Shown here: one piece after another, positions 16,195-62,765 of the stretch
How the letters are laid out: each line of letters opens with the position of its first letter
Numbering within the stretch: position 1 is the first letter of the stretch
Origin: Mustelus asterias
Lineage: Eukaryota
Assembly: GCF_964213995.1 (NCBI RefSeq)
Contig: NC_135826.1
Coordinates: 15,066,001 to 15,130,000 of the forward strand
Direction of reading: 5' to 3'
DNA length: 64,000 nt
The notes under the pieces: model-generated
The model's database searches: none
Told to the model about the DNA's origin: nothing
The model's input: the letters and a program-made list of their open reading frames with translations, nothing else
Position numbers and translations under genes: made by a program

Positions 16195-16537
16195 TTATAA
16201 GAGTTTATAAAGAATGTTGATCCAAAAACTGACCAGGCCACAAACCGTCCCCAATACTGCAGAATGAAGCTTCTTTAAACAGTGACGTGTCCGACCGTTA
16301 CTGAAATGGGTGGAGCTGAAACTGAGACATTTGTATGTGTTGGAGTAAAATGAAGATATGTTGAGTTTGTCTCTGTTTTGGACAGTCCCTCTCCTTAAAA
16401 TAACATTGCACAGTTCCTGCTGGGACCCAGCTGTTAGTTATTATCACCCAGCTAACCACACTGAAAGCTGATTGGTGGAAGCTGCCATCTCAATGCAGTT
16501 TAGCTTCAATCAATCTCTTTCAACATTTCCATGAAGT
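16195..16537. promoter_or_regulatory. Conserved upstream module, copy 1
   Basis: 38-bp core 16391-16428 identical at 40230 and 62585; ETS TTCCTG, E-box CAGCTG, RUNX AACCACA, inverted CCAAT. Confidence 0.55.
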
Positions 16538-16726
16538 TCAATTAGCTCTCAGTGTTCTGAATCTACGATAATAACAGCTACTGATAGAGTATCTCTTTTC
16601 AGATGCCAACTTAAGAAACTAACTCAAACTAACTTAGGGACAAATTAAGAGGGGCAGCTCCCCAAAAGAAAGGGGGAGCAGCCCGAACCAAAAACAAAGT
16701 CGAAAGGAAACTTAAAACGTCAAACC

Positions 16727-19062
16727 AGAAGGTGCAAAAAGGGGTCACGAAATGTTCTTGGCAGACAGGATTAAGGAGAATCCCAAGGCATTTTATTCAT
16801 ACGTTAGGAACAAAAGGGTTGTTAGGGAAAAAATTGGACCTCTCAGGGACAAAAGTGGGGAATTATGCTTGGAGCCCAAAGAGGTAGGGGAGATCCTAAA
16901 TGAATACTTTGCGTCGGTATTCACTAAGGAGAGGGATGTGTTGACTGGGAGTGTCTCGGAGGGGAGTGTTGAACCGTTGGAGAAAATCTCCATTACAAAG
17001 GAGGAAGTGTTAGGTTTGTTAGAGAATATAAAGACTGACAAATCCCCAGGGCCTGATGGAATCTATCCAAGGCTGCTCAGGGAGACGAGAGGTGAAATCG
17101 TTGGGCCTCTGACGCAAATCTTTGTCTCGTCACTGGACACAGGTGAGGTCCCAGAGGATTGGAGGATAGCCAATGTGGTCCCGTTATTTAAGAAGGGTAG
17201 GAAGGATAACCCGGGTAATTATAGGCCGGTGAGCTTGACGTCCGTGGTGGGGAAGTTGTTGGAGAAGATTCTTAAAGATAGGATGTATGCGCATTTAGAA
17301 AGGAATAAACTCATTAACGATAGTCAACATGGTTTTGTGAGAGGGAGGTCATGCCTCACTAACCTGGTGGTGTTTTTTGAAGAAGTGACCAAAATGGTTG
17401 ACGAAGGAAGGGCCGTGGATGTTGTCTATATGGACTTTAGTAAAGCATTTGATAAAGTCCCTCATGGTAGGCTAGTGAAAAAGGTTGGATCCCATGGGAT
17501 AAAGGGGGAGGTGGCTAGATGGGTGGAGAAATGGCTTGGTCATAGAAGACAGAGGGTGGTAGTGGAAGGGTCTTTTTCAGGCTGGAGGCCTGTGACTAGT
17601 GGTGTACCACAGGGCTCTGTATTGGGACCTCTGCTGTTTGTGATTTCTATCAATGATCTGGAAGAAGGAGTAACTGGGGTGATCAGTAAGTTTGCGGACG
17701 ACACAAAACTGGCAGGACTTGCAGATAGTGAGGAACATTGTCAGAGGCTACAGAAGGATATAGATAGGCTGGAAATTTGGGCAAGGAAATGGCAGATGGA
17801 GTTCAATCCTGATAAATGCGAAGTGATGCATTTTGGTGGGAATAATGTAGGGAGGAGCTACACGATAAATGGAAGAACCATAAAGGGTGTAGAGACGCAG
17901 AGGGACCTGGGTGTGCAAGTCCACAGATCTTTGAAGGTGACGTCACAGGTGGAGAAGGTGGTGAAGAAGGCATATGGCATGCTTGCCTTTATAGGACGGG
18001 GCATAGAGTATAAAAGTTGGGGTCTGATGTTGCAGATGTATAGAACGTTGGTTCGGCCGCATTTGGAATACTGCGTCCAGTTCTGGTCGCCACACTACCA
18101 GAAGGACGTGGAGGCTTTGGAGAGAGTACAGAGGAGGTTTACCAGGATGTTGCCTGGTATGGAGGGGCTTGGTTATGAGGAGAGATTGGGGAAACTGGGG
18201 TTGTTCTCCTTGGAAAGACGGAGGATGAGGGGAGACTTAATAGAGGTGTATAAAATTATGAAAGGCATAGATAGGGTGAACGGTGGGAAGCTTTTCCCCG
18301 GGTCGGTGGTGACGTTCACGAGGGGTCATAGGTTCAAGGTGAAGGGGGGGAGGTTTAACACAGATATCAGAAGGACATATTTCACACAGAGGGTCGTGGG
18401 GGCCTGGAATGTGTTGCCGGGCAAAGTGGTGGAGGCGGACACACTGGGAACGTTTAAGACTTATCTAGACAGCTATATGAACGGAGTGGGAATGGAGGGA
18501 TACAAAAGAGTGGTCTAGTTTGGACCAGGGAGCGGCGCGGGCTAATTGTTCCTTGTTTCTCGTTTCAAGGCTTCATTCTATGATCATCTTGCTGGTGCCA
18601 GTACAGAGCGAGACTGCGGATAGTTGGGAACCTGTCTCGGGGGCAGGGAATTCATATGGTGTTCGTGGAAGTGGAAATGACTAGGGTTGGGAAGCATTTT
18701 CCGATCAGGGCCATTGTGATCTCCTGGACTCGTTTCGATTGCCTCAGGGGGTCGGAGAGGAATTTCCCAGATTTTTTTTTCCCCATATTGGCCCTGGGGT
18801 TTTTCACTCTGGGTTTTCGCCTCTCCCTGGAGATCACATGGTCTGGAATGGGGGGGTGGGGGTGAGTTAATAGGTTGTAATGAACAAAGCATCGTAGCTG
18901 TGAGGGACAGCTCGGTGGATAGGATATTGGTATGTAGATAGGCTGGAAAATTGGGCGGGGATCCTGGTTTCAGGATTCAATCCTGGACCGGGGAGCGGCG
19001 CGGGCTTGGAGGGCCGAAGGGCCTGTTCCTGTGCTGTATTGTTCTTTGTTCTTTGTTCTTTG
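16727..19062 (+). mobile_element. Young CR1 LINE (family A), 5'-truncated
   Basis: Uninterrupted RT ORF; long 3' UTR ending (TTCTTTG)n. Confidence 0.92.
16752..18518 (+). CDS. CR1 ORF2 reverse transcriptase, C-terminal 588 aa
   Basis: [37 protein letters not shown] motifs. Confidence 0.85.
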   Translation: MFLADRIKENPKAFYSYVRNKRVVREKIGPLRDKSGELCLEPKEVGEILNEYFASVFTKERDVLTGSVSEGSVEPLEKISITKEEVLGLLENIKTDKSPGPDGIYPRLLRETRGEIVGPLTQIFVSSLDTGEVPEDWRIANVVPLFKKGRKDNPGNYRPVSLTSVVGKLLEKILKDRMYAHLERNKLINDSQHGFVRGRSCLTNLVVFFEEVTKMVDEGRAVDVVYMDFSKAFDKVPHGRLVKKVGSHGIKGEVARWVEKWLGHRRQRVVVEGSFSGWRPVTSGVPQGSVLGPLLFVISINDLEEGVTGVISKFADDTKLAGLADSEEHCQRLQKDIDRLEIWARKWQMEFNPDKCEVMHFGGNNVGRSYTINGRTIKGVETQRDLGVQVHRSLKVTSQVEKVVKKAYGMLAFIGRGIEYKSWGLMLQMYRTLVRPHLEYCVQFWSPHYQKDVEALERVQRRFTRMLPGMEGLGYEERLGKLGLFSLERRRMRGDLIEVYKIMKGIDRVNGGKLFPGSVVTFTRGHRFKVKGGRFNTDIRRTYFTQRVVGAWNVLPGKVVEADTLGTFKTYLDSYMNGVGMEGYKRVV

Positions 19063-19341
19063 TGATTATCGGGGTTGATAATACACCCTAGCCCCTGCGG
19101 CGCCCAGCGGTCGCGGAAGGCGCTACTGATAGAGTAAATTTTATTCAAGAATCAGTGCAATGTTTGAATAATCTAACTATTAGTTGATGGCAGATTAGAA
19201 TATGATAGTCAGGTGATGGGCAAGTTAGTACATCAATAACTAGTTAAATCTTCAACTTTTTCTGTGAAACGTGTTCACTCACTGTTGAAACAGTGGCAAT
19301 GGTGACAGGGCAAGATTGTCTAAAAGCTAATTGTGGCTGTT

Positions 19342-23208: not shown

Positions 23209-23699
23209 AAGGAGTAGGTGGCTGCAGGAAAGGGTAAGTAACAGAGGATTCAACATGGAGGCACTGTCTCACCAAACTTTTAAAAGCTTTCTGAAGGGAC
23301 TGTTGCTGTGGGCAGATCACCACTGGTTGAGTGGCGTGGAACCTCTTTACAAGCAGCATGTGGCTGCTCCTGCAGTGCCTGCCTGGAGCACTGGCTCCCT
23401 AATCTGTCACCAGGTACCAGCCTCCAGGTTCCTGAACTGGTCCCTGGCAGTATGGAATTGGAGACTGACCAGAAAATTCCAGCTAACCTCCTTTAATTGG
23501 AGTAAAGAAGAAGCTTAACAAACCTGATTGGCTCCATGTGGCATGGGGAACAGAAAGGCCTTGGAGGCTCGAAGCTCTCCCATCCTTAAAATGGCCACTC
23601 TGGGACTGGTATTGGGAAAGCAGCACCAACATTTTCACCTCCTGTCCTGCCTTTGTTGGGCCCAAATTTCCTGCCTATTGAGTCAGGACTCTGTTTGGG

Positions 23700-24860: not shown

Positions 24861-25211
24861 TTCAAATGGTTTCTCTTGTAGGGAGCTATTAGTAATGATA
24901 TAGAAAAGTATCTCCACATCATAGAAAAGTAATACAGTGTTCTATTTAATAAGCTTTTTATTAATGAGAGCCACGAGTGGAGAGATTTACACCAGATTGC
25001 ACCATTTGCAACAGAGAATTGGAGGTGAACAGCAATTCATAGTTCAGCTTTGAACAGAGGAAGCAGGCAAACATGAAAAGGAGAAGTGGGAAATATCAGA
25101 GAGAAACTATCTTCAGTTTGAAATGTGATTCAGTCTCTAACTGGGCTGAGGTGTCACTACATCAATCTCAATCTCTGACACTGAATGGGAGGCTTTCAGA
25201 TCCTTGCTCTG

Positions 25212-25293: not shown

Positions 25294-25355
25294 CTGCCAC
25301 ACTCAGTCACACACACACTCACTGAAGGGAGGCAGCAAGCTCACTGGCACAAAGG

Positions 25356-25401
25356 ATGTGGACCTGGTGTTTTTTCTGCTCTCTGGCACTGTGTCTGGGC
25401 T
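25356..25401 (+). CDS. IgL leader exon, cluster 1 (MWTWCFFCSLALCLG)
   Basis: ATG, hydrophobic peptide, phase-1 GTAAGT donor, 105-bp intron. Confidence 0.92.
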
Positions 25402-25506
25402 GTAAGTACAAACACTGAACTCTGCTCCTGCCGCTGCGGCAAACGGGGGGCTTGGAATCACTTTCAGACAGTCAATTTATAATGTTTAATCTCTGCTCTC
25501 TTACAG

Positions 25507-25833
25507 ATGGACAGACTCAGACTCTGACTCAGCCTCCAGACCTGAGTGTGAAACCGGGAAACACGGCCACACTGGACTGTAACATTGGAACGGGTGATAG
25601 CAATAGACTGAACTGGTACAAGCAGACCCCAGGAGCAGCTCCTCAGTGGGTCCTCAGCTTTTACCACTCATGGAGTGCCCCGAGCTATGGATCTGGGTTT
25701 AGCAGCGACCGTTTCACATCGACAGCCAACAGCGGCCACAACATTTACCAGTTAATCATAAAGAACGTGGGGGTGAATGATGCTGCCGTCTATTACTGTG
25801 GAAAGTGGGTTTCCTCGAGCAGCAGCTATGTGT
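25507..25833 (+). CDS. Ig light-chain V segment, sigma-type, cluster 1
   Basis: TTACAG acceptor; TLDC, WYKQ, long CDR2 with YGSGFSSDRFTS, DAAVYYC; followed by RSS. Confidence 0.95.
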
Positions 25834-25861
25834 CACCGTGACAGAAGGTAAGACAAAAACT
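25834..25861 (+). other. 12-bp-spacer RSS of V1
   Basis: CACCGTG-ACAGAAGGTAAG-ACAAAAACT. Confidence 0.93.
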
Positions 25862-26176
25862 GGCAACAGTAAGTGTTATACAATTAATGACTTTGTGTTC
25901 GGTAAAACATTGTAAAGTTTTACATTTCACCAAATCACTTTAATTTTGCCCTTTATGCAATATTTTCCAATTGATATAATTTAATAATTGATAACAATCT
26001 GAATCTCAGTGGACAGTATTGAGCATCGGTGACATTTTACTGTCAGCATGTGGGTGTTGCTGTGAGTTCATTCCTTACTGTCCCACACCAGCAGGAACAC
26101 TGGGAATACATGAAGCCTGATTAATGCTGGACTGCAGAATCTGAAACATGTTTTCTGTCTGATTTCCAGGATCCGG

Positions 26177-26215
26177 GATAACTGTATGGACTGAACCCTA
26201 AAACACCACACTGTG
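26177..26215 (-). other. 23-bp-spacer RSS of J1
   Basis: GATAACTGT-23 nt-CACTGTG; heptamer perfect, nonamer 5/9 to GGTTTTTGT. Confidence 0.8.
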
Positions 26216-26252
26216 TGGGTGTTCGGCCAAGGGACCAAACTCTTTGTCGCAG
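26216..26252 (+). CDS. IgL J segment, cluster 1 (WVFGQGTKLFVA)
   Basis: FGxGT motif, phase-1 GTAAGT donor. Confidence 0.95.
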
Positions 26253-27824
26253 GTAAGTGGCTGGAAATTCTCTCCTGCAGAAACTAGCTGTGTGAGTTTA
26301 GACATTTGGAAATGAATGAATAATTCAAACTCAGTTATTTCTTAGCACCTAGTTAAATGTTAATTTGACACATAGTGCTATTTCCATGCGTAGTCTCCAG
26401 CAACAGACTGACGAACCAGAAACACAGCAATAATTATTAGTGTGGTATGTCTGAATTTTGCTTCCTGACACTGTCTCTGAATAATCATGCTGCTGGACAT
26501 CAGCACTCTTTCTATTGACAAGTGCTCTGACTTTATGCATTCATTTCTGATCTTCCATATCGGTGGCTGTATTTTAAATAATAGTTGGTGCAGATAGAGT
26601 TTTGATCAGGAGGTGTTGCAGTTTCTTCAATCACTAATGGTGGGCAGTGCTGGGGAAAGTGTTAAATTGTGGTCTTCTCTCCTGGTTCAGCTGTTTTGTT
26701 GATGAACTGCAGGAACACTATTCACTGTTACGTGCGCTGTGGTGAATTAAATCTAAAGAAAGGAATTCACTGCATGCAACCCCTTTTTAAAGTCCTAAAG
26801 TGTTTGACATTGAAGTCTTTACTTCTGAAGGGTGGCAACTAAAGAGAGCAGCAAGTTAATGCACAGCAAGATCCCACACACCACAGTGTGACCAATCACC
26901 AGGTTCATGATAGGATTATTTGAAAGAATACTGGCCAGGACACTGACAACAATGTCACGGGGTCTTTTTGCATCAACCTGAACAAGCAGTCTGTTAGAAA
27001 CAAAAGCAACGCTGTCATCATATCATACTCACTCTGTACTCCCCAGAGGTGTTGGCCTAAACATGGTCTTGATTCCATATTTCTTGCACTCAGTTCCTTC
27101 CCTCAACCCATTTTCCCTTAAATATATCGATGATTAATCGGTGCCATTTCCTGATCTTGCTCGGAGCTGCAGAATTTCCACTTTCCACCGGCCACATGGT
27201 CCATTTCCAACTCTCTCCTTCCTTTCTGTAACTTCTCCATCTCTATTTCTGAGCAAAGGTTATCAAACTAATATCCAGTATAAACCCAATTACTCCCCAA
27301 CATCCCACAAGTGTAATGTAGGGCTCTGTTCCATTCTCCCAGTTTCTCTGTCTCTGTGACTCTTCTCAGACCTGCCATACCAATACTTATATTTCTTTCC
27401 TTCCCCCCCATCCTTAACCAAGAATTCTGCCACCCCCAGCAACACATCAGTTTTTAAAATATATTTTACATTTTTAACGCAATAAGATGTCAGAAGGTAA
27501 ATGACAGGAGTATTATCAAAGAAAGTGTGTTGCAGAGCATCATAAGGAGATCTTGGGGTCAATAGGTTAGTTTTAAGGAACTTCACGCTCAATGTTCCCT
27601 TCCCACCTACCCCATTTGAGAGGTTCCTGACTCTCTCCTCCTCAAACTTACCCAGGTCATGCTGGAACTCATGGGAACGGTGAACCCTCCCAGCTCTCCC
27701 CAATTGACAATTCCTGCCTGATTAGATGGGACAGGGAACATCAGTGGGTCATTGACCCATGAGTAGCCAAACCTGTCCTCATCTCCCACCCACAACCCTT
27801 TCAGTGGGGTGGGAGGGAGGCTGG

Positions 27825-28151
27825 AAACATAGAAACATAGAAACCCTACAGTGCAGAAGGAGGCCATTCGGCCCATCGAGTCTGCACCGACCACAATCCC
27901 ACCCAGGCCCTACCTCCACATATTTACCCGCTAATCCCTCTAACTACACATCTCAAGGACAATTTTTAACCTGGCCAATCAACCTAACCCGCACATCTTT
28001 GGACTGTGGGAGGAAACCGGAGCACCCGGAGGAAACCCACGCAGACACGAGGAGAATGTGCAAACTCCACACAGACAGTGACCCGAGTCGGGAATCGAAC
28101 CCGGGACCCTGGAGCTGTGAAGCAGCAGTGCTAACCACTGTGCTACCGTGC
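27825..28151 (-). mobile_element. HE1-like SINE in J-C intron 1
   Basis: Young, nearly full-length copy. Confidence 0.85.
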
Positions 28152-28616
28152 TGGAGATGGGGGAGGAGGCACTGGGGGAGTATGTTCAGCATCAGAACCC
28201 ATCCAATTAGATTTTCAGAGGCAGTGAGCACTTAGTTTTTGTTGGGAAGTGGAATCCAGTATCTGTGCTCTCCCTGATCAGGGATGCTGAGATTGAGTGA
28301 AGTGTCCCTGCTACACTGACTGAGTTCAACAACTCTACACAGACTGGGGATAGTATCTGACATCTGGAGGTTAAGATCCCCCAGTGAGTGATGCTCTAAT
28401 CCACAGAGTCAGCAGAAGAATCCTAAATAATATCTTCCACATCAAACTGAGTACTTTCTATTCCTAAACCTTTGCCAATTAGGGTAATGTCCGCTCACTC
28501 AATGAATTTCTAGAGTCCATTATAGGAAACTGAAACCTTTCACTGGAACTTCTTTTAAACTCGAAACTAAGTTGAATTTTTCTCTAACAACTTGTTTTCT
28601 CTGGTTCTGATTACAG

Positions 28617-28939
28617 CTCAGCAACTCCCTGATCCTTCAGTGAAACTGCTGGGACCTTCAGCCGATGAGTTATCCACTAAAGGAGCCGGCACGTTAGTTT
28701 GCCTGGTCAGCAAACTGTCCATGGGCTTTGCTGCGGTCAGCTGGACAGTCGATGGGAGTCCGACGAGCAGTGATGTCCAAACCAGCGTGGCGTCGCGGAA
28801 CTCAGACAACACCTTCAGTCTCAGCAGCTACCTGACAGTCCCTGGCAGAGATTGGAGCAGTGGGAAGGTATACTCCTGTTCAGTTCAACAAGGAGCAGCT
28901 TCAAAAACAACCGCAAGCGCCTCACAATCCAACTGTTAA
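28617..28939 (+). CDS. IgL constant exon, cluster 1
   Basis: TTACAG acceptor in phase with J; PSVKLLGPS, TLVCLV, VSW, FSLSSYL, YSCSV, terminal Cys then TAA. Confidence 0.95.
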
Positions 28940-39655: not shown

Positions 39656-40031
39656 TAAGTTTCAAAATTTTTAAGTAACGGAAAATGAGTTGATTGAATT
39701 ACTGAATTTTCCGACATCGAACCAACCAGAAGAAAACTGGTACATGGGGAAAGACCATCGGGTGAGGCACAAGATGGCTGCCAATTATCGCTGGACTGAT
39801 ACCAATGACATTGGGAACTGTGTCTCCTGAAGAATAATTCTGGGACAGTCCAGATCAATAGTGTCACCAAAGCAGCTTTGGAGATGGTGGTGATTGTCTG
39901 CTGTGCTGCCCTTAAAGGGCACCAAAGCAGATTTGAGTCAGACCTGACTCAACATTCCTTAACCTTCTGGAAATTAACTTCCTATTTTTGACTAAAAACA
40001 AAATATAATTCTGATCAGTAATTTTCCTTCT

Positions 40032-40377
40032 CTTTATGAGAGTTTATAAAGAATGTTGATCCAAAAACTGACCAGGCCACAAACCACCCCCAATACTGCA
40101 GAATGAAGCCTCTTTAAACAATGACGTGTCCGACCGTTACTGAAATGGGTGGAGCTGAAACTGAGACATTTGTATGTGTTGGAGTAAAATGAAGATATGT
40201 CGAATTTGTCTCTGTTCTGGACAGTCCCTCTCCTTAAAATAACATTGCACAGTTCCTGCTGGGACCCAGCTGTTAGTTATTATCACCCAGCTAACCACAC
40301 TGAAAGCTGATTGGTTGAAGCTGCTATCTCAATGCAGTTTAGCTTCAACCAATCTCCTTCAACATTTCCATGAAGTT
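40032..40377. promoter_or_regulatory. Conserved upstream module, copy 2
   Basis: Near-identical to 16195-16537; core 40230-40267. Confidence 0.55.
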
Positions 40378-41470
40378 TCTGAATCCATGGAAATAACGTA
40401 TTGTATCAGTAAATCTTATTCAGGAGTTAGTGCAATAGCGTTCAGTGTTTCCATAGTCAGTAGCTGGTTAATGGCAGATTAAATTTAAAGTTTATTTATT
40501 AGTGTCACAAGTTGGTTTACATTAACACTGCAATTAAGTTACTGTGAAAATCCCCTAGTCGCCACAGTCCAGTGCCAGTTCAGGTACACTGAAGGGAGAA
40601 TTTAGCATCGCCAACGCACCTAACCAGCCCATCTTTTGGACTGTGGGAGGAAACCGGAGCACCCGGAGGAAACCCATGCAGACACAAGGAGAACGTGCAG
40701 ACTCCGCACAAACAGTGACCCAAGCCGGGAATTGAACCCATGTCTCTGGAGCTGTGAGGCAGCAGTGCTACCCACTGTGCCACCTTGCTGCCCTACAGTG
40801 CCACGGTGCCACCCTGTGCCACTGAAGTTAAATCTTCAGCCCTTCTCTGTTATGCATGTTCACTCACTGGCAATGCCAATAGAGCAAGATTGTCTAAACG
40901 TCATCTGAGGGGCTTCGTGGGCTGGATTCTCCCTCCGAGGGTGGGAAATAGAAGTTGGGATTGTTATCAAGTCCCAGTCCCTCCATCCCGGGACGGGGCT
41001 GTGGAATGGTGGGTACATTCTGGCTGGGCTCTTGTAGTCGAAGCTAAAGGGGTCTTGCAACTTGAGAGGAGCTGTAGACAGCAGGAAAGACTAAGTAACA
41101 GTGAGTGTCCTATAGTGAGGAGTTTGCTGTATCATGTTTGAGATGGTTTCCCTTGAAGGGAGCTATTAGTATTCGTGTCGAATCCGTGTATGAGACTAGT
41201 ATCCATCATCATTTTTATAACGTTACCATTGACGAGAACCAGAGTATCTAAACTTCAGGGACTGCAGCAGTTCAAGAAGGCAGCTCACCACCACCTTCTC
41301 CAGGGCAACAAGGGATGGGCCATAAGTGCTGGCCGAGCCAGCGACACCCATGTCCCACAACTGAATACAAAAATTGTTGGTTTTGCACCAGATTGTAATA
41401 TAGCAGGCACTGAAACAGAAAATGCTGGAAAATCTCAGCAGGTCTGACAGCATCTATGGAGACAGAATAG

Positions 41471-41509: not shown

Positions 41510-41744
41510 AAAGACAAAGAAAAATGTAATATAGTAGGAATGTTTTCTTGTTGGGGTGTGAACAGCAATTCATAGTTCAGCTTTGAACAGAGGAAGCAGG
41601 CAAACATGAAAAGGAGAAGTGGGAAATATCAGAGAGAAACTATCTTCAGTTTGAAATGTGATTCAGTCTCTAACTGGGCTGAGGTGTCACTACATCAATC
41701 TCAATCTCTGACACTGAATGGGGGGCTTTCAGATCCTTGCTCTG

Positions 41745-41826
41745 ATTGGTGAGTGTCAGTTCTCTAATTTGCATGGCTGTCCTTCCTGTTGTGAATGGCT
41801 CTATAACTGGCTCCAATGGGCAGCTG
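41745..41826 (+). promoter_or_regulatory. Ig light-chain V promoter, cluster 2
   Basis: ATTGG, octamer ATTTGCAT 41767-41774 (full TAATTTGCAT decamer), TATAA 41802-41806, CAGCTG. Confidence 0.85.
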
Positions 41827-41888
41827 CTGCCACACTCTGTCACACACACACTCACTGAAGGGAGGCAGCAAGCTCACTGACACAAAGG

Positions 41889-41934
41889 ATGTGGACCTGG
41901 TGTTTTTTCTGCTCTCTGGCACTGTGTCTGGGCT
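41889..41934 (+). CDS. IgL leader exon, cluster 2
   Basis: Identical to leader 1; GTAAGT donor. Confidence 0.92.
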
Positions 41935-42039
41935 GTAAGTACAAACACTGAACTCTGCTCCTCCCGCAGCAGCAGACGGGGGGCTTGGAATTATTTTCAG
42001 ACAGTCAATTTATAATGTTTAATCCCTGCTCTCTTACAG

Positions 42040-42366
42040 ATGGACAGACTCAGACTCTGACTCAGCCTCCAGACCTGAGTGTGAAACCGGGAAACACGGC
42101 CACACTGGATTGTAACATTGGAACGAGTGATAGCTATGCAGTGAGCTGGTACAAGCAGACCCCAGGAGCAGCTCCTCAGTGGGTCCTCTATTATCATTAT
42201 TCTCTCAGTGCCCCGAGCTATGGATCTGGGTTTAGCAGCGACCGTTTCACATCGACAGCCAACAGCGGCCACAACATTTACCAGTTAATCATAAAGAACG
42301 TGGGGGTGAATGATGCTGCCGTCTATTACTGTGGAAAGTATTTTTCAAGCAGCAGCAGCTATGTGT
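42040..42366 (+). CDS. Ig light-chain V segment, sigma-type, cluster 2
   Basis: Same framework as V1, open frame, RSS follows. Confidence 0.95.
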
Positions 42367-42394
42367 CACAGTGACAGAAGGTAAAACAAAAACT
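42367..42394 (+). other. 12-bp-spacer RSS of V2
   Basis: CACAGTG-ACAGAAGGTAAA-ACAAAAACT. Confidence 0.95.
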
Positions 42395-42709
42395 CGCAAC
42401 AGTAAATGTTATACAATTAATAGCTTTGTGTTGGGTAAAACATTGTAAAGTTTTACATTTCATCAAATCACTTTAATTTTGTCCTTTATGCAATATTTTC
42501 CAATTGATATAATTTAATAATTGATAACAATCTGAATCTCACTGCCCAGAATTGAGCGTCGATGACATTTTACTGTCAGTGTGTGGGTGTTGCTGTGAGT
42601 TCATTCCTTACTGTCCCACACCAGCAGGAACACTGGGAATACATGAAGCCTGATTAATGCTGGACTGGAGAATCTGAAACATGTTTTCTGTCTGATTTCC
42701 AGGATCCGG

Positions 42710-42748
42710 GATAACTGTATGGACTGAATCCTAAAACATCACACTGTG
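42710..42748 (-). other. 23-bp-spacer RSS of J2
   Basis: GATAACTGT-23 nt-CACTGTG. Confidence 0.8.
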
Positions 42749-42785
42749 TGGGTGTTCGGCCAAGGGACCAAACTCTTTATCGCAG
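42749..42785 (+). CDS. IgL J segment, cluster 2 (WVFGQGTKLFIA)
   Basis: FGxGT motif, GTAAGT donor. Confidence 0.95.
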
Positions 42786-43831
42786 GTAAGTGGTTGGAAA
42801 TTCTCTCCCGTAGAAACTAGCTGTGTGAGTTTAGAAAATAAGAAATGAATCATTCAAAATCAGGTATTTCTTAGCAGCTACTTGTTAAATGTCAATTTTA
42901 ATGAAATCTTTAGTCTCCAGAACCTGTTCTGATAATCAGACACAGGAACAATTATTGGTTCCGCATGTCTGAGTGTGTGTCTCTGTCACTCGCTGTTTAT
43001 TAATGTTTTTGTGTATTGATTCTGTTCACAGTCCTCTGATTTTACAAATTCCTTTCCAAAATGGTCTATGAAATTGATTATTATATTTTGAAAATGCGGT
43101 TGGTGCAGATCGATTTTTGATCATTATATGGTGCGATTTAAATCTAAGGAAATGAATTTGATTTCTTTGACACCTTTCATGTCCTGAAGTGTTTCACTCA
43201 CTGTCCCTTTTGAAAGGGTGATCATTGCTGTATGCAGCAAACACGAGAGGCAACTAATGCACAGCAAGATCCCACACATAATGAGATCAGTTATTATATT
43301 TAATGGAATTAATTTAAGGAATATTGACTGTGACGCAGGGACAACAAGGTGACGGGACCTGTTGCATCTCCATGAACAGCAGCCTTTTCAGAAACAAAGC
43401 ATTGCTTATACTGTCCTGTAATTGCTCAGTTTTCCAGTCAAGTGTTGGTCTAAACATTGTTCCTGATCCATATTTATTCTACTCGAATCCCCTCCCTGAG
43501 CTTCATTCTCTGGTACATTAATGATGGTCTCAGTGCAGTTTCATACTCTTGCACTGAACAGGAAAATCTCATCAACTTTGCTTCCAATTTCGAACCTCTT
43601 ATCTTTACATTGTCCATCTCCAATCCAGCCCTTCCTCAACGTGTCTGTCACAATTTCTGAGGGCAGGTTATCAAAACAATGTCCACAAAAGCCCACTAAC
43701 TGTTCCAGCTACCTTAAATATATTTGATTCATGCCACATTCTGTAAGATCTCTACCCCATTCTTCCAGAATTTTGGTCTCTTGTGTAAGTGAACCCTGAC
43801 ACCTACCATCCCAATGCTAATGATATGTCTT

Positions 43832-44049
43832 AATAAAAGCAAATTACTGTGGATGCTGGAATCTGAAACCAAAAGAGAAAATGCTGGAAAATCTCAGCAG
43901 GTCTGGCAGCATCTGTGAGGAGAGAAAAGAGCTGACGTTTCGAGTCCAGATAATTTGACAAAGGGTCATCTGGATTCAACATCAGCTCTTTTCTTTCCTT
44001 ATAGATGCTCCCAGACCCGCTGGGATTTTCCAGCATTTTCTCTTTTGTT
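43832..44049. mobile_element. Fold-back element (second Penelope-type family) in J-C intron 2
   Basis: Inverted arms; 14-bp TSD TAATGATATGTCTT (43818-43831 / 44050-44063). Confidence 0.7.
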
Positions 44050-45578
44050 TAATGATATGTCTTCCTGCCTCCCCTTAACCAAGGATTCTGCTGCCCATCA
44101 ACTTGTATTTATATAGCCTCTTCAGGTAAAAATTCCCAAAATGTTTGCAATTATCAAACAAAGTATTTTGCTGATTCCGATAAGGGAATATTAAGTTAGA
44201 GATCAAATAGAAGGAACCTCATGATCAAAACTCTATTCCGACTCCATTTGAGAGACCCTTGATTCTGTGTTCTTCAAATACTCCATCCCAATTCCTGCTG
44301 GAACACCCCTCTGCTTCTATCCCTCTTTCCTTCATGCTCGCCCATTGATCTTATTGCTGATCCTTTTGAGTCCATTTACTGTGAATCTTGTGTTTCGACG
44401 TTGAGTCAAGAGCTCAGGTTCTGGGTTAAATTAACTCCAATGTTATGTGGAACAACACGTCCTATATAACAAGAGTCTGGGAGGAGTGACAGTGTGGTGA
44501 AAGGCCTCACTGAGTATGTGCTGAAGTTTGGCTTTGAGAGCTAACACCCAGAGCAGGCCTCCCACCACTGGCTTCATTGTGAACTGCTGCTGGTTGTCAT
44601 GTTGACATTGTGCCTGTCCTGATGGGTTAGTGTTGCTGTGTGCATTACCAGCAATCTCACCACAACCCAAGGACACTGGGCAAAGGAAATTGTGGAGATA
44701 TTGTCCCAGAGTTACTTAAACCCCCCTAGATACAGTGAAGTTTATTTTAACATGGCGAGTGTTTACGATCTGGAAGGCACTTCAGGACTGGCAGAGGCTT
44801 TAAAATGGAATTGGATAATTGTGTAAATAGAAAAGAGTTGCAGGATGATGGGGAGAAGGCTGGGGCACTGGGACTAGTTGACTTGCCCTTACAGGGAGCC
44901 AGCATGGATACGACAGGCCGAATAGCCTCCTCTTGAGCTGTAACCATTCTCTGATTGTCCAATCAGCATGTGTAGAATTTTGTAACACTTTGTAACTTTC
45001 TATTTCCAGTCATGTACACTTGGATATTTTCTCCCTCATTCCCTCAGCCTTGTACCAGTGGGAGCTTTGAACACCAGGGAAGGATCATTGAATATCAAAT
45101 GGGGAATAATATTAGCTTTTAGTTCTCCTCTCTCTACAGAAGGTTAATGGGGGTAATTGGAGCACCACCAGAGGCCATTCGCTGACCTGTCACTTAGTAC
45201 TTTACAGACCTCTAGAGCACATACTAGGTGACCTCACCTGTTTTGGTATTGGATAGTTTGAGTGACTTCTACCCTTCCTGTGGCAGTGGGTGACCATTAA
45301 TGGATGGGTATTAATGATGGGTGGTGTGTAATGGGGAAATGGAAGAGGAGGATGGTATGGATACATTACCTGGGTCTGTGCCAATTTACACTGACAGTTT
45401 GTGACTCTCAAGTCCAGTATTGGCTCAATTTCAAGACAAATCCAAATAGATTTTCAGAGGCAGTGATCATTTGTTTTTGGTGAGCACTGCGATCCAGAAT
45501 AATTTCTCTCCCCATTGAGGGGCACGGAGGTCAAATGCAGCTTTTCTGGTGACTCACCTGCTATCAGCCAACTCAACA

Positions 45579-45660
45579 GCTGCGATGGCCGAGTGGTTAA
45601 GGCGTTGGACTTGAAATCCGATGGGGTTTCCCTGCGCAGGTTCGAACCCTGCTCGCAGCG
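45579..45660 (+). tRNA. tRNA-Ser (anticodon UGA)
   Basis: 82 nt; acceptor stem GCTGCGA/TCGCAGC plus discriminator G; A box TGGCCGAGTGG; anticodon TGA 45612-45614; long variable arm; B box GGTTCGAACC; TTTT at 45681-45684. Confidence 0.92.
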
Positions 45661-45722
45661 AGTGTGTTAAAAGCTGTTTCTTTTCCTCAGTCATTTCTTG
45701 AAAACTGGTTGCCATTCCTATA

Positions 45723-46068
45723 GGGCGGCACGGTAGCACAGTGGTTAGCACTGCTGCTTCACAGCTCCAGGGTCCCGGGTTCGATTCCCGGCTCGGGTCA
45801 CTGTCTGTGTGGAGTTTGCACATTCTCCTTGTGTCTGCGTGGGTTTCCTCCGGGTGCTCCGGTTTCCTCCCACAGTTCAAAGATGTGCGGGTTAGGTTGA
45901 TTGGCCAGGTAAAAAAAAAAATTTTCCCCTTAGAGTCCTGGGATGCGTAGGTTAGAGGGATTAGTGGGTAAAATATGTGGGGGTAGGGCCTGGGTGGGAT
46001 TGTGGTCGGTGCAGACTCGATGGGCCGAATGGCCTCCTTCTGCACTGTAGGGTTTCTATGATTTCTAT
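45723..46068 (+). mobile_element. HE1-like SINE in J-C intron 2
   Basis: Young full-length copy. Confidence 0.85.
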
Positions 46069-46349
46069 GGAACACAGACTGGGGATAGTGTCTGGGGTCT
46101 GGAGGTGAAGATCCCACAGTGAGTGATGCTCTAATCCACAGAGTCAGCAGGAGGATCCTAAACAATATCTTCCACATCAAACTGAGTACTTTCTGTTCCT
46201 AAACCTTTGCCAATGAGGGTAATGTCCGCTCACTCAATGAATTTCTGGAGTCCATTATAGGAAACTGAAACCTTTCACTGGAACTTCTTAAACTCAAAAC
46301 TAAGTTGAATTTTTCTCTAACAACTTGTTTTCTCTGGTTCTGATTACAG

Positions 46350-46672
46350 CTCAGCAACTCCCTGTCCCTTCAGTAAAACTACTGGGACCTTCAGCTGATG
46401 AGTTATCCTCTAAAGGAGCCGGCACGTTAGTTTGCCTGGTCAGCAAACTGTCCATGGGCTTTGCTGCGGTCAGCTGGACAGTCGATGGGAGTCCGACGAG
46501 CAGTGATGTCCAAACCAGCATGGCGTCGCGGAACTCAGACAACACCTTCAGTCTCAGCAGCTACCTGACAGTCCCTGGCAGAGATTGGAGCAGTGGGAAG
46601 GTATACTCCTGTTCAGTTCAACAAGGAGCAGCTTCAAAAACAACCGCAACCGCCTCACAATCCAACTGTTAA
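46350..46672 (+). CDS. IgL constant exon, cluster 2
   Basis: 4 aa differences from C1; intact acceptor and terminal Cys. Confidence 0.95.
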
Positions 46673-53698: not shown

Positions 53699-54008
53699 TG
53701 TGGTGAACCATAGTTGTTTACCACTATGAGTACTGAACCATAGATGGTCAGCACTATGGGTACTTGTAGATATGTTGGCTGTGTTGTCACTGTTGGGGTT
53801 AGGGTTGGGGTGTTCTACCTGTTGATATTGTTCTGTGGTACACTCCAGTTGGCTCCGCCTACTTGGAGGAATATAAAGGTCACTGCACTGCGTGGTGACC
53901 CTTTAGTCTGGGATTGTATTGTACATAGTGTGCTCCATTCTTGTTAGTAATAAAAGCCTTTATTTCCCGGGTACGATCCAGCCTCCCGAGTGATTTAATC
54001 GCGCATCA
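53699..54008 (+). repeat. 5' LTR (310 bp)
   Basis: Direct repeat with 58089-58395; TATAAA 53872-53877; AATAAA 53949-53954. Confidence 0.95.
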
Positions 54009-54043
54009 ATTTTATTACAAACAAATTTTGGTAAAAAAAAACC

Positions 54044-57000: not shown

Positions 57001-58087
57001 TGACAGGGCACACCTCATTAAAGCCACTCGCCCTTTTGAAATACTGAGTGTGGACTTCAAGGGCCCCCTTCCTTCGACAGATCGGAACGTGTACTTCCTC
57101 AACGTGATTGACGAGTATTCATGATTCCCTTTTGCCATTCCCTGTTCAGACATGACCGCTGCCACGGTTATCAAAGCATTACGGGATCTTTTCACCCTGT
57201 TCGGTTACCCCAGCTATATCCACAGTGATAGGGGCTCGTCATTTATGAGTGACGACTTGAGGCAATACCTGCTCTCAAAAGGGATTGCCTCAAGTAGAAC
57301 TATGAGTTACAACCCCAGGGGTAACGGGCAGGTTGAAAGAGAAAATGCTACAGTCTGGAAGGCTGTCTTACTGGCGTTGAGGTCTAAGGGTCTTCCAGTC
57401 TCCCGTTGGCAAGAGGTACTTTCTGATGTGCTCCATTCCATCCGGTCCCTCCTGTGTATGGCAACCAACGCTACTCCACATGAGAGGATGTTTTCCTTCC
57501 CTAGGAAGTCTTCCTCTGGGACCTCATTGCCATCTTGGTTGATGTACTCAGGACCTGCCCTCCTGCGGCGGCATGTTAGGACCCGCAAGTCCGACCCTTT
57601 GGTTGAACAGGTCCATCTCCTCCACGCCAACCCTCAATATGCCTATGTGGCATATCCTGACGGGCGAGAGGACATGGTCTCTATTAGAGATCTGGCGCCT
57701 GCAGGGGTCTTGGAAACCCCAGTCGCTCCCACACCCCTAGTTAGGGACCCTTTGACCTTTATCTCCCCTCCTGACAGGGCGCGGGCAGTATCGGGACCAC
57801 CACTTAATCCTCTTACTCCCGTGTACAGCTTGCCTGAGTCCAGGAGATTGTCGTCACCTCGAGGCTTGCTCGAGTCCAGCAGATGGTCGCCACCTTGTGG
57901 TCCACCTGTCCGTGACACTGGCCACCGCCTTGGAGAGAGGGTCATCACGGTCACCAGAACCGGCGTTACCGCCAGTGTTGAGGAGGTCGCAGAGACGGTG
58001 CGGTCCTCCAATACGACTGAACTTGTGAATATTTGGACAGTTTGTTCTGTTTTTGCCCCGCCGGCCTTTGTCTTAAAGGAGGGGTGA
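54044..58087 (+). pseudogene. Single gag-pol ORF with one in-frame stop (57122-57124) and a mutated RT catalytic motif
   Basis: Two CCHC knuckles, FDSGS protease, RT YLAN, RNase H SDAS..EKE, integrase HHCC and SVDFKGP..HSDRG..GQVERE; the two ORFs share one frame. Confidence 0.88.
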
Positions 58088-58088
58088 A

Positions 58089-58395
58089 TGTGGTGAACCA
58101 CTGTTGGTTACCACTATGAGTACTGAACCATAGATGGTCAGCACTATGGGTACTTGTAGATATGTTACTGTTGTCACTGTTGGGGTTAGGGTTGGGGTGT
58201 TCTACCTGTTGATATTGTTCTGTGGTACACTCCAGTTGGCTCCGCCTACTTGGAGGAGTATAAAGGTCACTGCACTGCCTGGTGACCCTTTAGTCTGGGA
58301 TTGTATTGTATATAGTATGCTCCATTCTTGTTAGTAATAAAAGCCTTTATTTCCCGGGTACGATCCAGCCTGCCGAGTGATTTAATCACGCATCA
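58089..58395 (+). repeat. 3' LTR (307 bp)
   Basis: About 10 substitutions and a small indel relative to the 5' LTR. Confidence 0.95.
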
Positions 58396-60207
58396 CACTC
58401 CAGGTGTGGCCTCACCTATACAATTGCAGCAAAACATCCTTATCCCTATACTCAAATCCTCTCGCTATGAAGGTCAATATACTACATGCATTCTTTACTG
58501 CCTGTTGTACCTGCACAATTACTTTCAGCGACTGATGCATGAGAACACCAAGGCCTCGCTGATTATCCACCTCTCCCAATTTACACCCATTCAAGTAATA
58601 ATCTTCCTATTATTGCTACCAAAGTGGATAACTTCACATTTATCCTACTGCATCTGCCATGCATATGCCCACACACTCAGCCTGTCCAAATGATGCTGAA
58701 GCATCTCTGTATGGTCCTCACCCTCCCACCCAACGTTGTATCATCTGCAAGTCTGGAGATAATACATTTAGTTCCCGCTTCCAAATCATTAATATATAAT
58801 GTGAACAGTTGGGTTCCTGGCACAGATCCCTGCAGAACTCCACTCGTCACTGACTGCCAATCAGAAAAAGACCCATTTATACCAACTCTTTGCTTCCTAA
58901 CTGCTAACCAGCTTTCTATCCATCTTAAGACATTACCTGCAATCCCATATGCTTTAACTTTACCTCGTAGTCTGTTATGTAAGACCTTGTCGAAAGCCTT
59001 CTGAAAGTCTAAATAAACCACATCCACTGATTCTCCTCGGTTATCTTTACTAGTTACATCCTCAAAGAATTCCAATTAAGTTGTCAAGCACGATTTCCCT
59101 TCTGTAAATCCATGCTGACTTTGTCCGATTATACCACTGCCTTCCAAATGCTGAGTTATGAAATCCTTGATAATAGACTCCAGCAACTTCCCCAGTACCA
59201 ACGTTAGGCTCACTGGTCTATAGTTCCTTGTTTTCCCTCTACCTCCCTTTTTGAAATAGCTCGATGCCCAGTGGGAATCCTGATTTAGCCCTGGTGCTGG
59301 ATTCAACAGACCATCGGGATTCTCGGCTGTGACTAGTGGACCTGGAGAATCCCCCTCTCAGCCTCCACTCCTGACTCGGATACCAAGTAACAGGACTGTA
59401 ATGGACTGTAACGTTGGAACATTATACAACAATTATGGGTAGAATTTTCCCAAAATCTTTCAAAGTGCCATATCAGCGAAACAACAGGGGTGTTTTGCGC
59501 AGGTTCCTTGGTCCGCTTTGCGTCGCAATCTTCCGACACTCAGTGCAGTGAAAGAACCTCCATGCGATTCATGCCATCATGGATGCACCAGTCATCTGAC
59601 TCACCCAAAGTGGTACAGCTTTGCGCTGTCAAGCAGGGGCAGCTCCATTTAAACACTAACAGTACACACAGTCACGCCAGGAAGTTTATTTATTTAAAGT
59701 TTATTTATTAGTCAGAAGTAGGCTTACATTAACACTGCAATGAAGTTGCAGTGTTAATGTAAACTTACTCTGACGCCTGTTCGGGTACACTGAGGGAGAA
59801 TTTAGCATGGCCAATCCACCTCGTAGAGCTGCTCCACAATTTATGCAGGGGGAGTTGGGCCGGCTACTTGATGCCATGGAAGAGAGGAGGGCCATCTTCT
59901 TCCCCAGAGACGGTTGGCGGCCCAATGGGCTACCGCCATGAATCAGCCATAATTCCCACAGTCATGATCACTGTCAGTCACCTGATTCCTGGAAGTGAGC
60001 TGAGGACAGGATTGTGTTGGTTTGTGTCTACATGTCTGCCTACACTCACTGCCTCGAGTCCCACATGAAGACATTGACATTCAATGGCATTAACATCACT
60101 GAATCCTCCACTTTCAGCACCCTTAAGGTTGCCATTGACCAGATATTGAACCAGATCAGCTGCATAAATGCTGTGGATACAAGAGCAGGTCAAAGGTTGG
60201 GAATCGG

Positions 60208-61587: not shown

Positions 61588-62419
61588 CCTCATGACTCCC
61601 CAAAACCTGTTCACTATCTGCAGGGCACAAATCAGGAGTGTGATGGAATACTCTCCTCTTGCCTGGATGGGTGCAGCTCCAACAACACTCAAGAAGCTTG
61701 ACACCATCCAGGACAAAGCAGCCCACTTAATTGGCACCCCATCCACCACCTTCAACATCCACCCCTTCCACCATTGATGCACAGTGGCAGCAGTGTGTAC
61801 CATCTACAAGATGCACTGCAGCAACTGACCATGGACCCTTCGACAGCACCTTCCAAACCCACAAACTCTTCCACCCAAAAGGACCAGGGCAGCAGATGCA
61901 TGGGAATACACCCAATTGCAAAGTTCATCTCCAAGCCTTGGACATATATTACCATTCTTTCACTGTCAAAATCCTGGGACCTGTGTCATATGAACTGCAG
62001 TGGTTCAAGAAGATGGTTCGCCATCACGTTCTCAAGGGGAATTAGGGATGGGCAACAAATGCTGGCCTAACCAGCGATACCCACATTCCATGAACAAATA
62101 AAAATAAGAATGGTCACTATTGATTGCTGTTGGCACCTTCAGCACCTGTGTGGCAGCAGCGACCCAAAAATGAGTTAAACTTCATCCAGAGAAGGAATAA
62201 AATCACACATTGGATCAGTTAACCCTTAGGTGGAGAAATAAGATGGATGTCATCGAATTGAAGGTCATTGTACATCTCAAAGGATTTTCCTCCTATGACT
62301 TTGATTGAGAGGCCGCTATCACCCAGAGTTAAACTGGTCATGTGATGTTCGGTGAATAAAACTGTTGGGTCCATGAACACAAGCAACAAACATGGCAGAA
62401 ATTCAGGAGCAATTTTTGT

Positions 62420-62765
62420 TAAAATTGACCTTGTTCAGATTGCATCGGAGACAATCTCCCTAAAAACAGTGAGTGTCTGACAGACTTAAAGAAACACGTC
62501 AAATTAAACAGAAACCAAGATATTTGTGTATTGTTGGTATAAGATACAGATTTGGAGGGTTTGATTCTGTTCTGGACAGCCCCACTCCTTAAAATAACAT
62601 TGCACAGTTCCTGCTGGGACCCCAGGTGGTTGTTAGTTTCACCCACTGGAGGAAGCTGGTTTGGGCGGCACAAAATCATATTTAAAATCTAAAGCTGATT
62701 GGATGGGGCAGCCATCTAAATGCGGTTTAACTTCACTCTATCCCCTTCAATATTTAAATGAGGTG
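62420..62765. promoter_or_regulatory. Conserved upstream module, copy 3 (diverged)
   Basis: Invariant 38-bp core 62585-62622, E-box CAGGTG, AAAGCTGATTGG 62691-62702. Confidence 0.5.

What the first reader, a model, noticed from the sequence alone, without database searches (positions are those of the whole stretch)
16195..62765. Thrice-repeated non-coding module at ~23-kb spacing: candidate IgL cluster enhancer/divergent promoter, and a pointer to a third cluster
Seen: CTCCTTAAAATAACATTGCACAGTTCCTGCTGGGACCC (38 bp) is identical at 16391, 40230 and 62585 (spacings 23839 and 22355), although copy 3 is otherwise much diverged. An E-box follows in each and is retained through a substitution (CAGCTG, CAGCTG, CAGGTG), then an invariant AAAGCTGATTGG (inverted CCAAT). 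The core holds ETS (CAGGAA), C/EBP-like and MEF2/TATA-like motifs, and copies 1-2 add RUNX AACCACA. Copy 2 is 1.6 kb upstream of the V2 ATG; copy 1 has been pushed to ~9 kb from V1 by TE insertions. On the minus strand the order CCAAT, E-box, ETS, TATTTTAA, donor CTG|GTCAGT, acceptor TTTAAG|G reads like a divergent spliced transcription unit. Inference: a cis-regulatory unit duplicated with each cluster.
Basis: partly seen in the sequence, partly recalled or inferred. Interest (0 to 1): 0.72.

Follow-up and report, generated by a model that had tools for sequence, protein, structure and literature searches.

The report
Candidate shark antibody light-chain cluster enhancer
A short non-coding sequence, packed with binding sites typical of B-cell enhancers, is repeated about once per antibody light-chain gene cluster in a shark genome and is probably each cluster's own on-switch, although no experiment has shown this yet.

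Summary
The 38-bp core occurs exactly at 16391, 40230 and 62585, inside a ~350-bp non-coding module. The window holds two shark Ig-sigma V-J-C clusters.

Colinear anchors tie copies 1-2 to the V promoter downstream. The module is 96.5% identical between clusters, against 71-83% for adjoining spacer and intron. Copy 3 is 76% identical overall but 51/54 in the core.

The core packs kB-like, MEF2, C/EBP-like, ETS and E2A-type motifs. The motif statistics depend on the thresholds chosen.

A third, older sigma gene is annotated in the same species on a contig of equal length. This supports the third-cluster prediction, but its position is unverified. A decayed V relic lies 3.2 kb left of copy 3.

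The divergent spliced-transcript reading is unsupported and the ~23-kb spacing is coincidental.

Best reading (0.6): a per-cluster upstream B-lymphoid enhancer. The main rival is gene conversion of neutral flank, since conversion among these clusters is evident. Function is inferred only, and no other shark genomic DNA could be searched.

The parts
16190..16545 (+). Module copy 1 (candidate upstream enhancer of cluster 1)
   Evidence: 335/347 identical to copy 2; profile hit
16380..16433 (+). Core of copy 1: kB-like 16380-16389, MEF2 16394-16403, C/EBP-like 16405-16414, ETS 16412-16418 (minus), E2A-type E-box 16428-16433; then RUNX 16454-16460 and inverted CCAAT 16468-16475
   Evidence: motif scans, (consensus patterns recalled)
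40030..40385 (+). Module copy 2; core starts 1659 bp upstream of the V2 leader ATG
40219..40272 (+). Core of copy 2: kB-like 40219, MEF2 40233, C/EBP-like 40244, ETS 40251, E-box 40267; then RUNX 40293 and CCAAT 40307
62400..62785 (+). Module copy 3, the diverged paralogue; net 33 bp longer between core and CCAAT; similarity runs up to a LINE tail at 62786
   Evidence: 228/299 identical to copy 2 with 66 gap columns
62574..62628 (+). Core of copy 3: kB-like 62574, MEF2 62588, C/EBP-like 62599, ETS 62606, E-box 62623; then CCAAT 62695 and RUNX 62721
   Evidence: 51 of 54 columns identical to copy 2
15781..16045 (+). Second conserved island left of copy 1, with a YY1 motif (15897) and a second kB-like decamer (15968); not found at copy 3
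   Evidence: 256/264 identical to 39656-39919; separated from the module by a 76.6% spacer
39656..39919 (+). Second conserved island left of copy 2 (YY1 39771, kB-like 39842)
16591..19135 (+). LINE insertion (RT ORF 16716-18515) with a 14-bp target-site duplication, first of the insertions between copy 1 and V1
   Evidence: TSD at 16577 and 19122; Pfam RVT_1
19133..19324 (+). Colinear anchors of the module-to-promoter spacer (match 40408-40482 and 40826-40898); further anchors at 23211-23262 and 24858-24980
   Evidence: 81, 83, 71 and 72% identity
25025..25355 (+). V1 promoter: inverted CCAAT 25209, octamer 25234, TATAA 25269
   Evidence: 98.8% to promoter 2
25356..28939 (+). Ig-sigma cluster 1: leader 25356-25401, V 25507-25833, 12-bp RSS from 25834, J 26216-26252 with 23-bp RSS, C 28617-28939
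41558..41888 (+). V2 promoter: inverted CCAAT 41742, octamer 41767, TATAA 41802
41889..46672 (+). Ig-sigma cluster 2: leader 41889-41934, V 42040-42366, J 42749-42785, C 46350-46672
   Evidence: segments match P0011 letter for letter apart from the junctions
59357..59421 (+). Decayed V-sigma relic (FR1 to the start of CDR1), 3.2 kb left of copy 3; no leader, promoter, J, C or module found for it
   Evidence: 47/64 nt; nhmmer E 6.8e-7 with no hit in the reversed control; SW score 64 vs at most 32 in 12 shuffled-query scans
62786..64000 (-). LINE whose tail abuts copy 3; it fills the place where a third V promoter would be expected
   Evidence: 71.5% to the RT-coding 17397-18458 on the opposite strand; tail repeat

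Best explanation
The module is a B-lymphoid enhancer that belongs to the 5' end of each Ig-sigma V-J-C minicluster and was copied with it.

Shown: it is non-coding, lies upstream of the V promoter in clusters 1-2 (1.2 kb in cluster 2), is an island of high identity among diverged neighbours, and keeps a 55-bp core in a much older paralogue.

Inferred: NF-kB, MEF2, an ETS factor, an E-protein and probably C/EBP, RUNX and NF-Y bind it in developing and activated B cells. It then acts on the octamer/CCAAT/TATA V promoter of its own cluster, opening V-J for RAG and raising transcription, and it may also help target somatic hypermutation.

Also inferred: copy 3 serves a third, older sigma cluster (P0021) right of the window, pushed away by the LINE at 62786.
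For: Position: 4 colinear anchors at 71-83% link copy 1 to promoter 1 exactly as copy 2 is linked to promoter 2, while the module itself is 96.5%. The J-C intron is 71%.

Constraint in copy 3: 51/54 core columns against 76% overall. In the ungapped blocks, 46/48 columns match inside motif footprints against 91/121 outside (Fisher p 9e-4). Both in-motif changes fall on degenerate consensus positions.

Motifs: E-box, NF-kB, MEF2 and Ets are the four site classes named for Ig enhancers in PMC3972084. With 1 mismatch allowed for kB and MEF2, the only 55-60-bp windows of the 64 kb that hold all four are the three cores. 3 of 20000 core shuffles did so, and 30 shuffled windows gave 5 clusters in all. 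All 3 kB-then-MEF2 doublets among 123 MEF2 hits lie in the cores. Bird Ig-lambda enhancers have the same doublet 3-4 nt apart (read by eye); here the gap is 4 nt.

Age and third cluster: P0021's V groups with two catshark genes (99/96), and a clade of the three same-species V domains is rejected (p-AU 0.014). An unconstrained V relic nearby has decayed to 47/64.

Not coding or structured RNA.
Against: No functional data exist, and no cross-species DNA comparison was possible.

Gene conversion is evident. Non-coding V-J spacer, 3'UTR and pre-C intron are also 95-97% identical, and P0021 shares the species-specific leader and a 97% identical C. Identity alone therefore does not prove selection.

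The motif result depends on thresholds. The cores qualify in 16 of 36 definitions and in none of the 20 that demand an exact kB or exact classical MEF2; clusters elsewhere range from 0 to 84. Patterns were chosen after seeing the sequence, the Fisher test is partly circular, and the three copies are one origin.

The PU.1-IRF composite of lambda enhancers is absent, and order and orientation of the other sites differ. The classical Ig enhancers lie in the J-C intron or 3' of C (established knowledge). The V relic left of copy 3 and the unverified position of P0021 leave copy 3's partner open.
Confidence: 0.6

Rival explanations
1. The module is functionless flank of an old tandem duplication, kept alike by gene conversion between clusters. 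The 38-bp block is a short conversion tract and the motifs are chance.
For: Mosaic of 95-99% islands with sharp edges that include non-coding DNA. C domains group by species while V lineages are trans-species. P0021 shares the derived leader. Lax motif definitions give chance rates up to 0.47 per 350 bp.
Against: The island is cut off from the promoter island by 1.2-8.5 kb of 71-83% spacer and TEs, so something local has to anchor it. Copy 3 keeps sites through consensus-neutral substitutions and across a 33-bp length change rather than as one clean tract. The V relic decayed.
Confidence: 0.17
2. It is an enhancer or boundary, but it acts mainly on the preceding cluster as a 3' element (copy 2 on C1, copy 3 on C2 or on a decayed cluster), or on both neighbours.
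For: Copies 2 and 3 lie 11.3 and 15.9 kb after C1 and C2. Enhancers work from either side (PMC3972084 Discussion). A V relic lies left of copy 3.
Against: Copy 1 has no Ig segment in the 16 kb to its left. Copies 1-2 are colinear with the downstream promoters, and the regions after C1 and C2 share no homology beyond the polyA region. No CTCF core consensus was found in the window.
Confidence: 0.1
3. It is the promoter and first exon of a leftward spliced non-coding transcript, with the left island as its second exon.
For: Strong CCAAT box 73 bp from the core. GT and AG sites in a fitting order in copies 1-2. The left island is separately conserved at 97%.
Against: No TATA consensus. The donor is 7/9 like 274 sites in the window. 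The acceptor has a weak pyrimidine tract. Copy 3 lacks the left island, its CCAAT spacing differs by 33 bp, and CpG is depleted (o/e 0-0.18). No structure signal (z 0.1-1.0).
Confidence: 0.08
4. It is a dispersed repeat or transposon relic that happens to lie near the clusters.
For: The window is TE-rich, and a genome-wide search could not be run.
Against: Only 3 copies, all on +, whereas true repeats here occur many times in both orientations. No terminal repeats or target-site duplication shared by the copies. Copies 1-2 sit in colinear unique flank. No Pfam match above cut-off in the module frames scanned.
Confidence: 0.05

Closest known systems
Ig-lambda enhancers of birds and mammals (cIgLE, hIgLE, mouse E2-4 and E3-1), also hypermutation-targeting DIVAC elements; PMC3972084 (passages, Discussion, Figs S2 and S4 as text)
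   Same: Compact cluster of E-box, NF-kB, MEF2 and Ets sites; kB directly followed by MEF2 (3-4 nt in birds, 4 nt here); an Ets site and an E-box further right; light-chain locus.
   Different: No PU.1-IRF4 composite. The kB site has one mismatch. No E-box left of kB. The Ets site is on the other strand and only 8 nt from MEF2. There is an added CCAAT box. It lies 5' of V and once per cluster, not 3' of C. Homology beyond motifs was not tested.
Chicken Ig-lambda 3'Core (PMC3972084)
   Same: E-box, CBF/RUNX, C/EBP and Ets-type motifs close together.
   Different: 3'Core lies downstream of the enhancer and is described without a kB-MEF2 doublet.
V-region enhancers of mouse Ig loci, EVH1 and E88 (PMC9984487, passages); V8E/PAIR (PMC10390877, start of abstract only)
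   Same: Enhancers among V genes that raise germline transcription and rearrangement of nearby V segments.
   Different: They organise megabase translocon loops; here each V-J-C unit of 4-5 kb has its own copy at 1-9 kb. Motif content was not compared.
Promoter-enhancer holocomplex model for shark Ig miniclusters (PMC2435157, passages)
   Same: Predicts cluster-local, infrequently formed complexes that start rearrangement.
   Different: The model concerns IgH and names no enhancer sequence in the passages read.
Elasmobranch Ig-sigma (type IV) light-chain miniclusters
   Same: V 71/92 and 74/92 identical to nurse shark sigma P0022 without gaps; split V-J-C.
   Different: Nothing in the genes themselves is unusual, apart from a degenerate J nonamer and a changed leader start.

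Membership tests
Ig locus transcriptional enhancer | Non-coding and not a structured RNA | tested here: met
   Frames broken across copies and no codon periodicity. One Pfam hit below cut-off (E 0.009) among the 4 module-region frames scanned. No Rfam hit at gathering score; 3 chance hits at E 0.75-3.6. Fold z 0.1-1.0.
Ig locus transcriptional enhancer | Cluster of B-lineage factor sites | tested here: met
   Four classes within 55 bp, unique in the window at 1 mismatch; threshold-dependent, 16 of 36 definitions.
Ig locus transcriptional enhancer | Sequence constraint on the sites | tested here: inconclusive
   46/48 vs 91/121, but between paralogues subject to conversion; no orthologous DNA available.
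Ig locus transcriptional enhancer | Open, acetylated chromatin in B cells and position-independent activation | not testable with these tools
   Needs ATAC, ChIP and reporter assays.
Ig-lambda-type enhancer / DIVAC | kB site directly followed by MEF2 | tested here: met
   3 of 3 copies, 4-nt gap, each site 1 mismatch from the recalled consensus; bird arrangement.
Ig-lambda-type enhancer / DIVAC | PU.1-IRF4 composite site | tested here: not met
   5 exact composites in the window, none in a module.
Ig-lambda-type enhancer / DIVAC | Upstream E-box before kB; location 3' of C | tested here: not met
   The only CASSTG box in each module is right of ETS; colinearity places the module 5' of V.
Ig-lambda-type enhancer / DIVAC | AID-dependent stimulation of hypermutation | not testable with these tools
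   Needs the DT40 GFP-loss assay.
Divergent TATA/CCAAT promoter of a spliced transcript | TATA consensus at fixed distance from CCAAT, splice sites kept in all copies | tested here: not met
   No TATAWAWR; spacing 73/73/106; acceptor region absent from copy 3.
Dispersed transposable element | High copy number, both orientations, TIR/TSD/tail | tested here: inconclusive
   Not met within the window; the genome-wide count was not testable.
Ig-sigma (type IV) light chain, for the adjacent genes | Closest named relatives are sigma; long CDR2 | tested here: met
   77% and 75% to nurse shark and horn shark sigma; same CDR2 length as P0022; long sigma CDR2 per PMC5985310. No sigma-2 sequence was fetched for contrast.
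Ig-sigma (type IV) light chain, for the adjacent genes | Split V and J with 12/23 RSS | tested here: met
   12-bp spacer after V and 23-bp before J; J nonamer only 5/9 to the recalled consensus.

The most novel reading that the evidence does not exclude
The module is the autonomous switch of each shark sigma minicluster, setting both stochastic V-J activation and hypermutation targeting. Its kB-MEF2 doublet is inherited from the same ancestral light-chain enhancer as the tetrapod Ig-lambda enhancer, which would then have moved from 5' of V to 3' of C as clusters became translocons.
Probability: 0.12. Interest if true: 0.8.

Novelty: new variant of a known kind. Interest (0 to 1): 0.48.

Why it matters
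How one of many shark Ig miniclusters is switched on in a B cell is an open question. The published model invokes a rarely formed promoter-enhancer complex (PMC2435157, passages) but names no enhancer. My searches of the open library listed no paper whose title or abstract start describes a shark Ig enhancer. Subscription papers are not held, so absence from print is not shown.

A 55-bp core with defined sites, present in three natural variants at different distances from their promoters, gives a direct test of that model. It also tests whether Ig enhancer and DIVAC grammar predates bony vertebrates. If it is only converted flank, it is an ordinary product of concerted evolution.

Tried and rejected
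Protein-coding exon: rejected. Known or structured RNA: rejected. Decayed V promoter or other cluster part: the module was aligned with 7 non-module segments on both strands; the best case was 2 of 200 shuffles reaching the score, not significant over 14 tests.

A neighbouring gene that could own the module as its promoter: 114 frames of 62 aa or more in unique regions gave one RT fragment and one sub-threshold hit. Short exons would be missed, so this is weak.

Homology between post-C1 and post-C2 or left-of-copy-1 DNA: none in 7 pieces. My anchor 3 coordinates misaligned (60.8%) and were left out of the anchor count, so 4 of 5 anchors are reported.

The plasmid search with the module found nothing and is uninformative. 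PDB gave only generic antibody hits. Table S1 of PMC12227049 (part 1 of 2 read) did not locate these genes. The Atlantic cod light-chain enhancer paper is recalled only; one search found 0 papers, so it is not used. The text of Fig S4 of PMC3972084 is scrambled, so mammalian kB-MEF2 spacing was not read from it.

Accessions and cluster members of P0011 and P0021 could not be obtained, so P0021's coordinates stay unknown. REST and MHC class II S-X-Y readings were considered by eye from recalled consensus and dropped for lack of the partner sites. The 33-bp length change equalling three helical turns may be chance. Trees used 21 of the fetched elasmobranch proteins plus the two window sequences. 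No eukaryotic DNA collection was available, so genome-wide and cross-species tests stayed unchecked.
Full report
Observation. The 38-mer is present at 16391, 40230 and 62585 and nowhere else on either strand. It lies in a module of about 350 bp, and a profile of the three copies finds no fourth. The perfect run is unlikely by chance at the background identity of copy 3 (p about 0.0004-0.013 for 73-80%).

Setting. The window holds two complete V-J-C clusters on +, with leader, V, 12/23 RSS, J and C. The V domain is 77% and 75% identical to proteins named sigma light chain of nurse and horn shark and has the same long CDR2. Cluster 2 matches P0011, a protein NCBI names from Mustelus asterias, segment by segment. 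Each V has a complete promoter with inverted CCAAT, octamer and TATAA, so the module is not the V promoter, and it is not homologous to it. Most of the rest is LINE, SINE and LTR DNA.

Which cluster owns the module. Between copy 1 and promoter 1, four short anchors match the 1.2-kb spacer between copy 2 and promoter 2 in order, at 81, 83, 71 and 72%. A fifth that I tried was misaligned. A LINE with a 14-bp target-site duplication and further insertions account for the extra length. The DNA after C1 and after C2 shares nothing beyond the polyA region (7 pieces tested), and no Ig segment lies left of copy 1. So copies 1 and 2 are 5' parts of the duplicated unit, and the near-equal 23-kb spacing is an accident.

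Pattern of identity. Clusters 1 and 2 are a mosaic. Promoter is 98.8% identical, V-J spacer 95.0%, pre-C intron 95.3%, C 97.5% and 3'UTR 96.6%, against 71% in the middle of the J-C intron. The module (96.5%) and a separate island to its left (97.0%) stand out from spacers of 71-83%. In trees, C domains sort largely by species while V domains do not. This is concerted evolution of old duplicates, so high identity marks where conversion or selection has held on; it does not by itself prove base-level selection. This is the main weakness of the case.

Copy 3 and the third cluster. Copy 3 is 76% identical to copy 2 overall but 51/54 in the core. Its similarity continues to the tail of a LINE at 62786 that fills the rest of the window. 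P0021 is a third sigma protein named from the same species, not encoded in the window, on a contig of the same length as P0011. Its V is 73/92 and 67/92 identical to V1 and V2 and groups with two catshark genes (99/96); holding the three same-species V domains together is rejected (p-AU 0.014). An old third cluster fits an old third module. That it lies right of copy 3 is inference, because coordinates could not be obtained. Against a simple picture, a decayed V fragment sits at 59357-59421 (47/64 nt, E 6.8e-7, no control hit) with no detectable leader, promoter, J, C or module of its own. It shows that a further cluster existed or was partly copied, and how far unconstrained DNA has decayed. 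It also leaves open that copy 3 once followed a cluster. P0021 shares the species-specific leader, so conversion does reach cluster 3.

What the core holds. All consensus patterns below are recalled, not taken from a call. From left to right: a kB-like decamer, 4 nt, a MEF2 site, a C/EBP-like site, an ETS site and an E2A-type E-box, then RUNX and CCAAT. PMC3972084 names E-box, NF-kB, MEF2 and Ets sites as required in Ig enhancers. Its Fig S2 shows kB followed after 3-4 nt by MEF2 in four birds. By eye the chicken kB fits the consensus exactly and its MEF2 departs by one base; the shark sites depart by one base each. With one mismatch allowed, the three cores are the only 55-60-bp windows holding all four classes (3 of 20000 core shuffles; 5 clusters in 30 shuffled windows), and they hold all 3 kB-MEF2 doublets among 123 MEF2 hits. 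The result is sensitive to definitions: 16 of 36 catch the cores, 20 do not, and background clusters range from 0 to 84. Between copies 2 and 3, 46/48 motif columns match against 91/121 others (p 9e-4, partly circular). The two changes inside motifs are consensus-neutral, and RUNX appears at a different place in copy 3. The PU.1-IRF composite is missing from the module, but exact composite and ISRE motifs sit in the conserved intron just 5' of both C exons.

Other readings. Coding exon and structured RNA are rejected. The divergent spliced unit lacks a TATA consensus, its donor is one of 274 equal or better, and its acceptor region is absent from copy 3. A dispersed repeat is unlikely from what the window shows but could not be tested genome-wide.

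Mechanism. Shown: position, copy structure, constraint pattern and motif content. Inferred: binding by NF-kB, MEF2, ETS, E-proteins, RUNX and NF-Y in B cells, action on the V promoter of the same cluster, germline transcription and RAG access, and possibly hypermutation targeting, by analogy with PMC3972084 and with V-region enhancers (PMC9984487). I put 0.60 on this, 0.17 on converted neutral flank, 0.10 on a 3' or shared element, 0.08 on an antisense promoter and 0.05 on a repeat. It works like an Ig-lambda-type enhancer in motif grammar but fails two defining features, so it is not filed as a member.

Literature seen. Passages: PMC5985310, PMC12227049 (supplement search and part 1 of 2 of table S1), PMC5192425, PMC2435157, PMC4279169, PMC9984487. 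PMC3972084: passages, Discussion and Figs S2 and S4 as extracted text. PMC10390877: listing and start of abstract only. Searches listed no description of a shark Ig enhancer; subscription journals are not covered.

Verdict. This is a real feature and probably a per-cluster upstream enhancer, a new variant of a known kind. Interest is 0.48: useful and directly testable, but unproven, with a live neutral rival.

Noticed in passing
window 59357-59421 (+): Decayed V-sigma fragment between cluster 2 and copy 3, with no leader, J, C or module of its own; possibly the trace of a fourth cluster.
   Followed up: yes
window 28337-28615 and 46072-46348: A 95%-identical intronic island just 5' of each C holds an exact Ets-IRF composite (28455, 46190; differing only at a free position) and an exact ISRE motif (28526, 46261). 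It is a candidate intronic partner element, or merely a conversion tract extending from C.
   Followed up: partly
window 15781-16045 and 39656-39919: Second conserved island (97%) with a YY1 motif and another kB-like decamer, separated from the module by a 77% spacer and absent at copy 3; unexplained.
   Followed up: partly
window 26177-26215 and 42710-42748: The J RSS nonamer matches the recalled consensus at only 5/9 in both clusters, and the V1 heptamer (25834) differs from V2's at one base; this may bias rearrangement.
   Followed up: no
window 25507-25833: V1 is a mosaic: frameworks identical to V2 but CDR1 and CDR2 residues shared with the P0021 lineage; V1 and V2 differ almost only in the CDRs.
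   Followed up: partly
window 25356-25401 and 41889-41934: The leader start differs from that of the other sharks seen and is shared by all three genes of this species; the upstream ATG that catshark models use appears out of frame here (read by eye).
   Followed up: no
window 45579-45660 (+): tRNA-Ser(TGA) gene inside the J-C intron of cluster 2 only.
   Followed up: no
window 53699-58395: Gypsy-type LTR retrotransposon, LTRs 95.5% identical, with protease, RT and RNase H in a 1029-aa frame and integrase split by a stop.
   Followed up: no
window 14400-15209: Head-to-head inverted repeat element (782 bp, 92% self-complementary) flanked by a direct repeat of about 12 bp; resembles Penelope-type structure (recalled).
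   Followed up: no
window 15340-15708 and 39340-39655: SINEs of one family inserted independently, about 70 bp apart, in the homologous left flanks of copies 1 and 2.
   Followed up: partly
window 26407-26470: A window in the J-C intron of cluster 1 with 5 motif classes, lying in DNA that is not conserved in cluster 2; shows the background level of such clusters.
   Followed up: no
window 11711-14399: 2.7 kb of single-copy DNA left of copy 1 with no Pfam hit; looks LTR-like by eye, untested.
   Followed up: no
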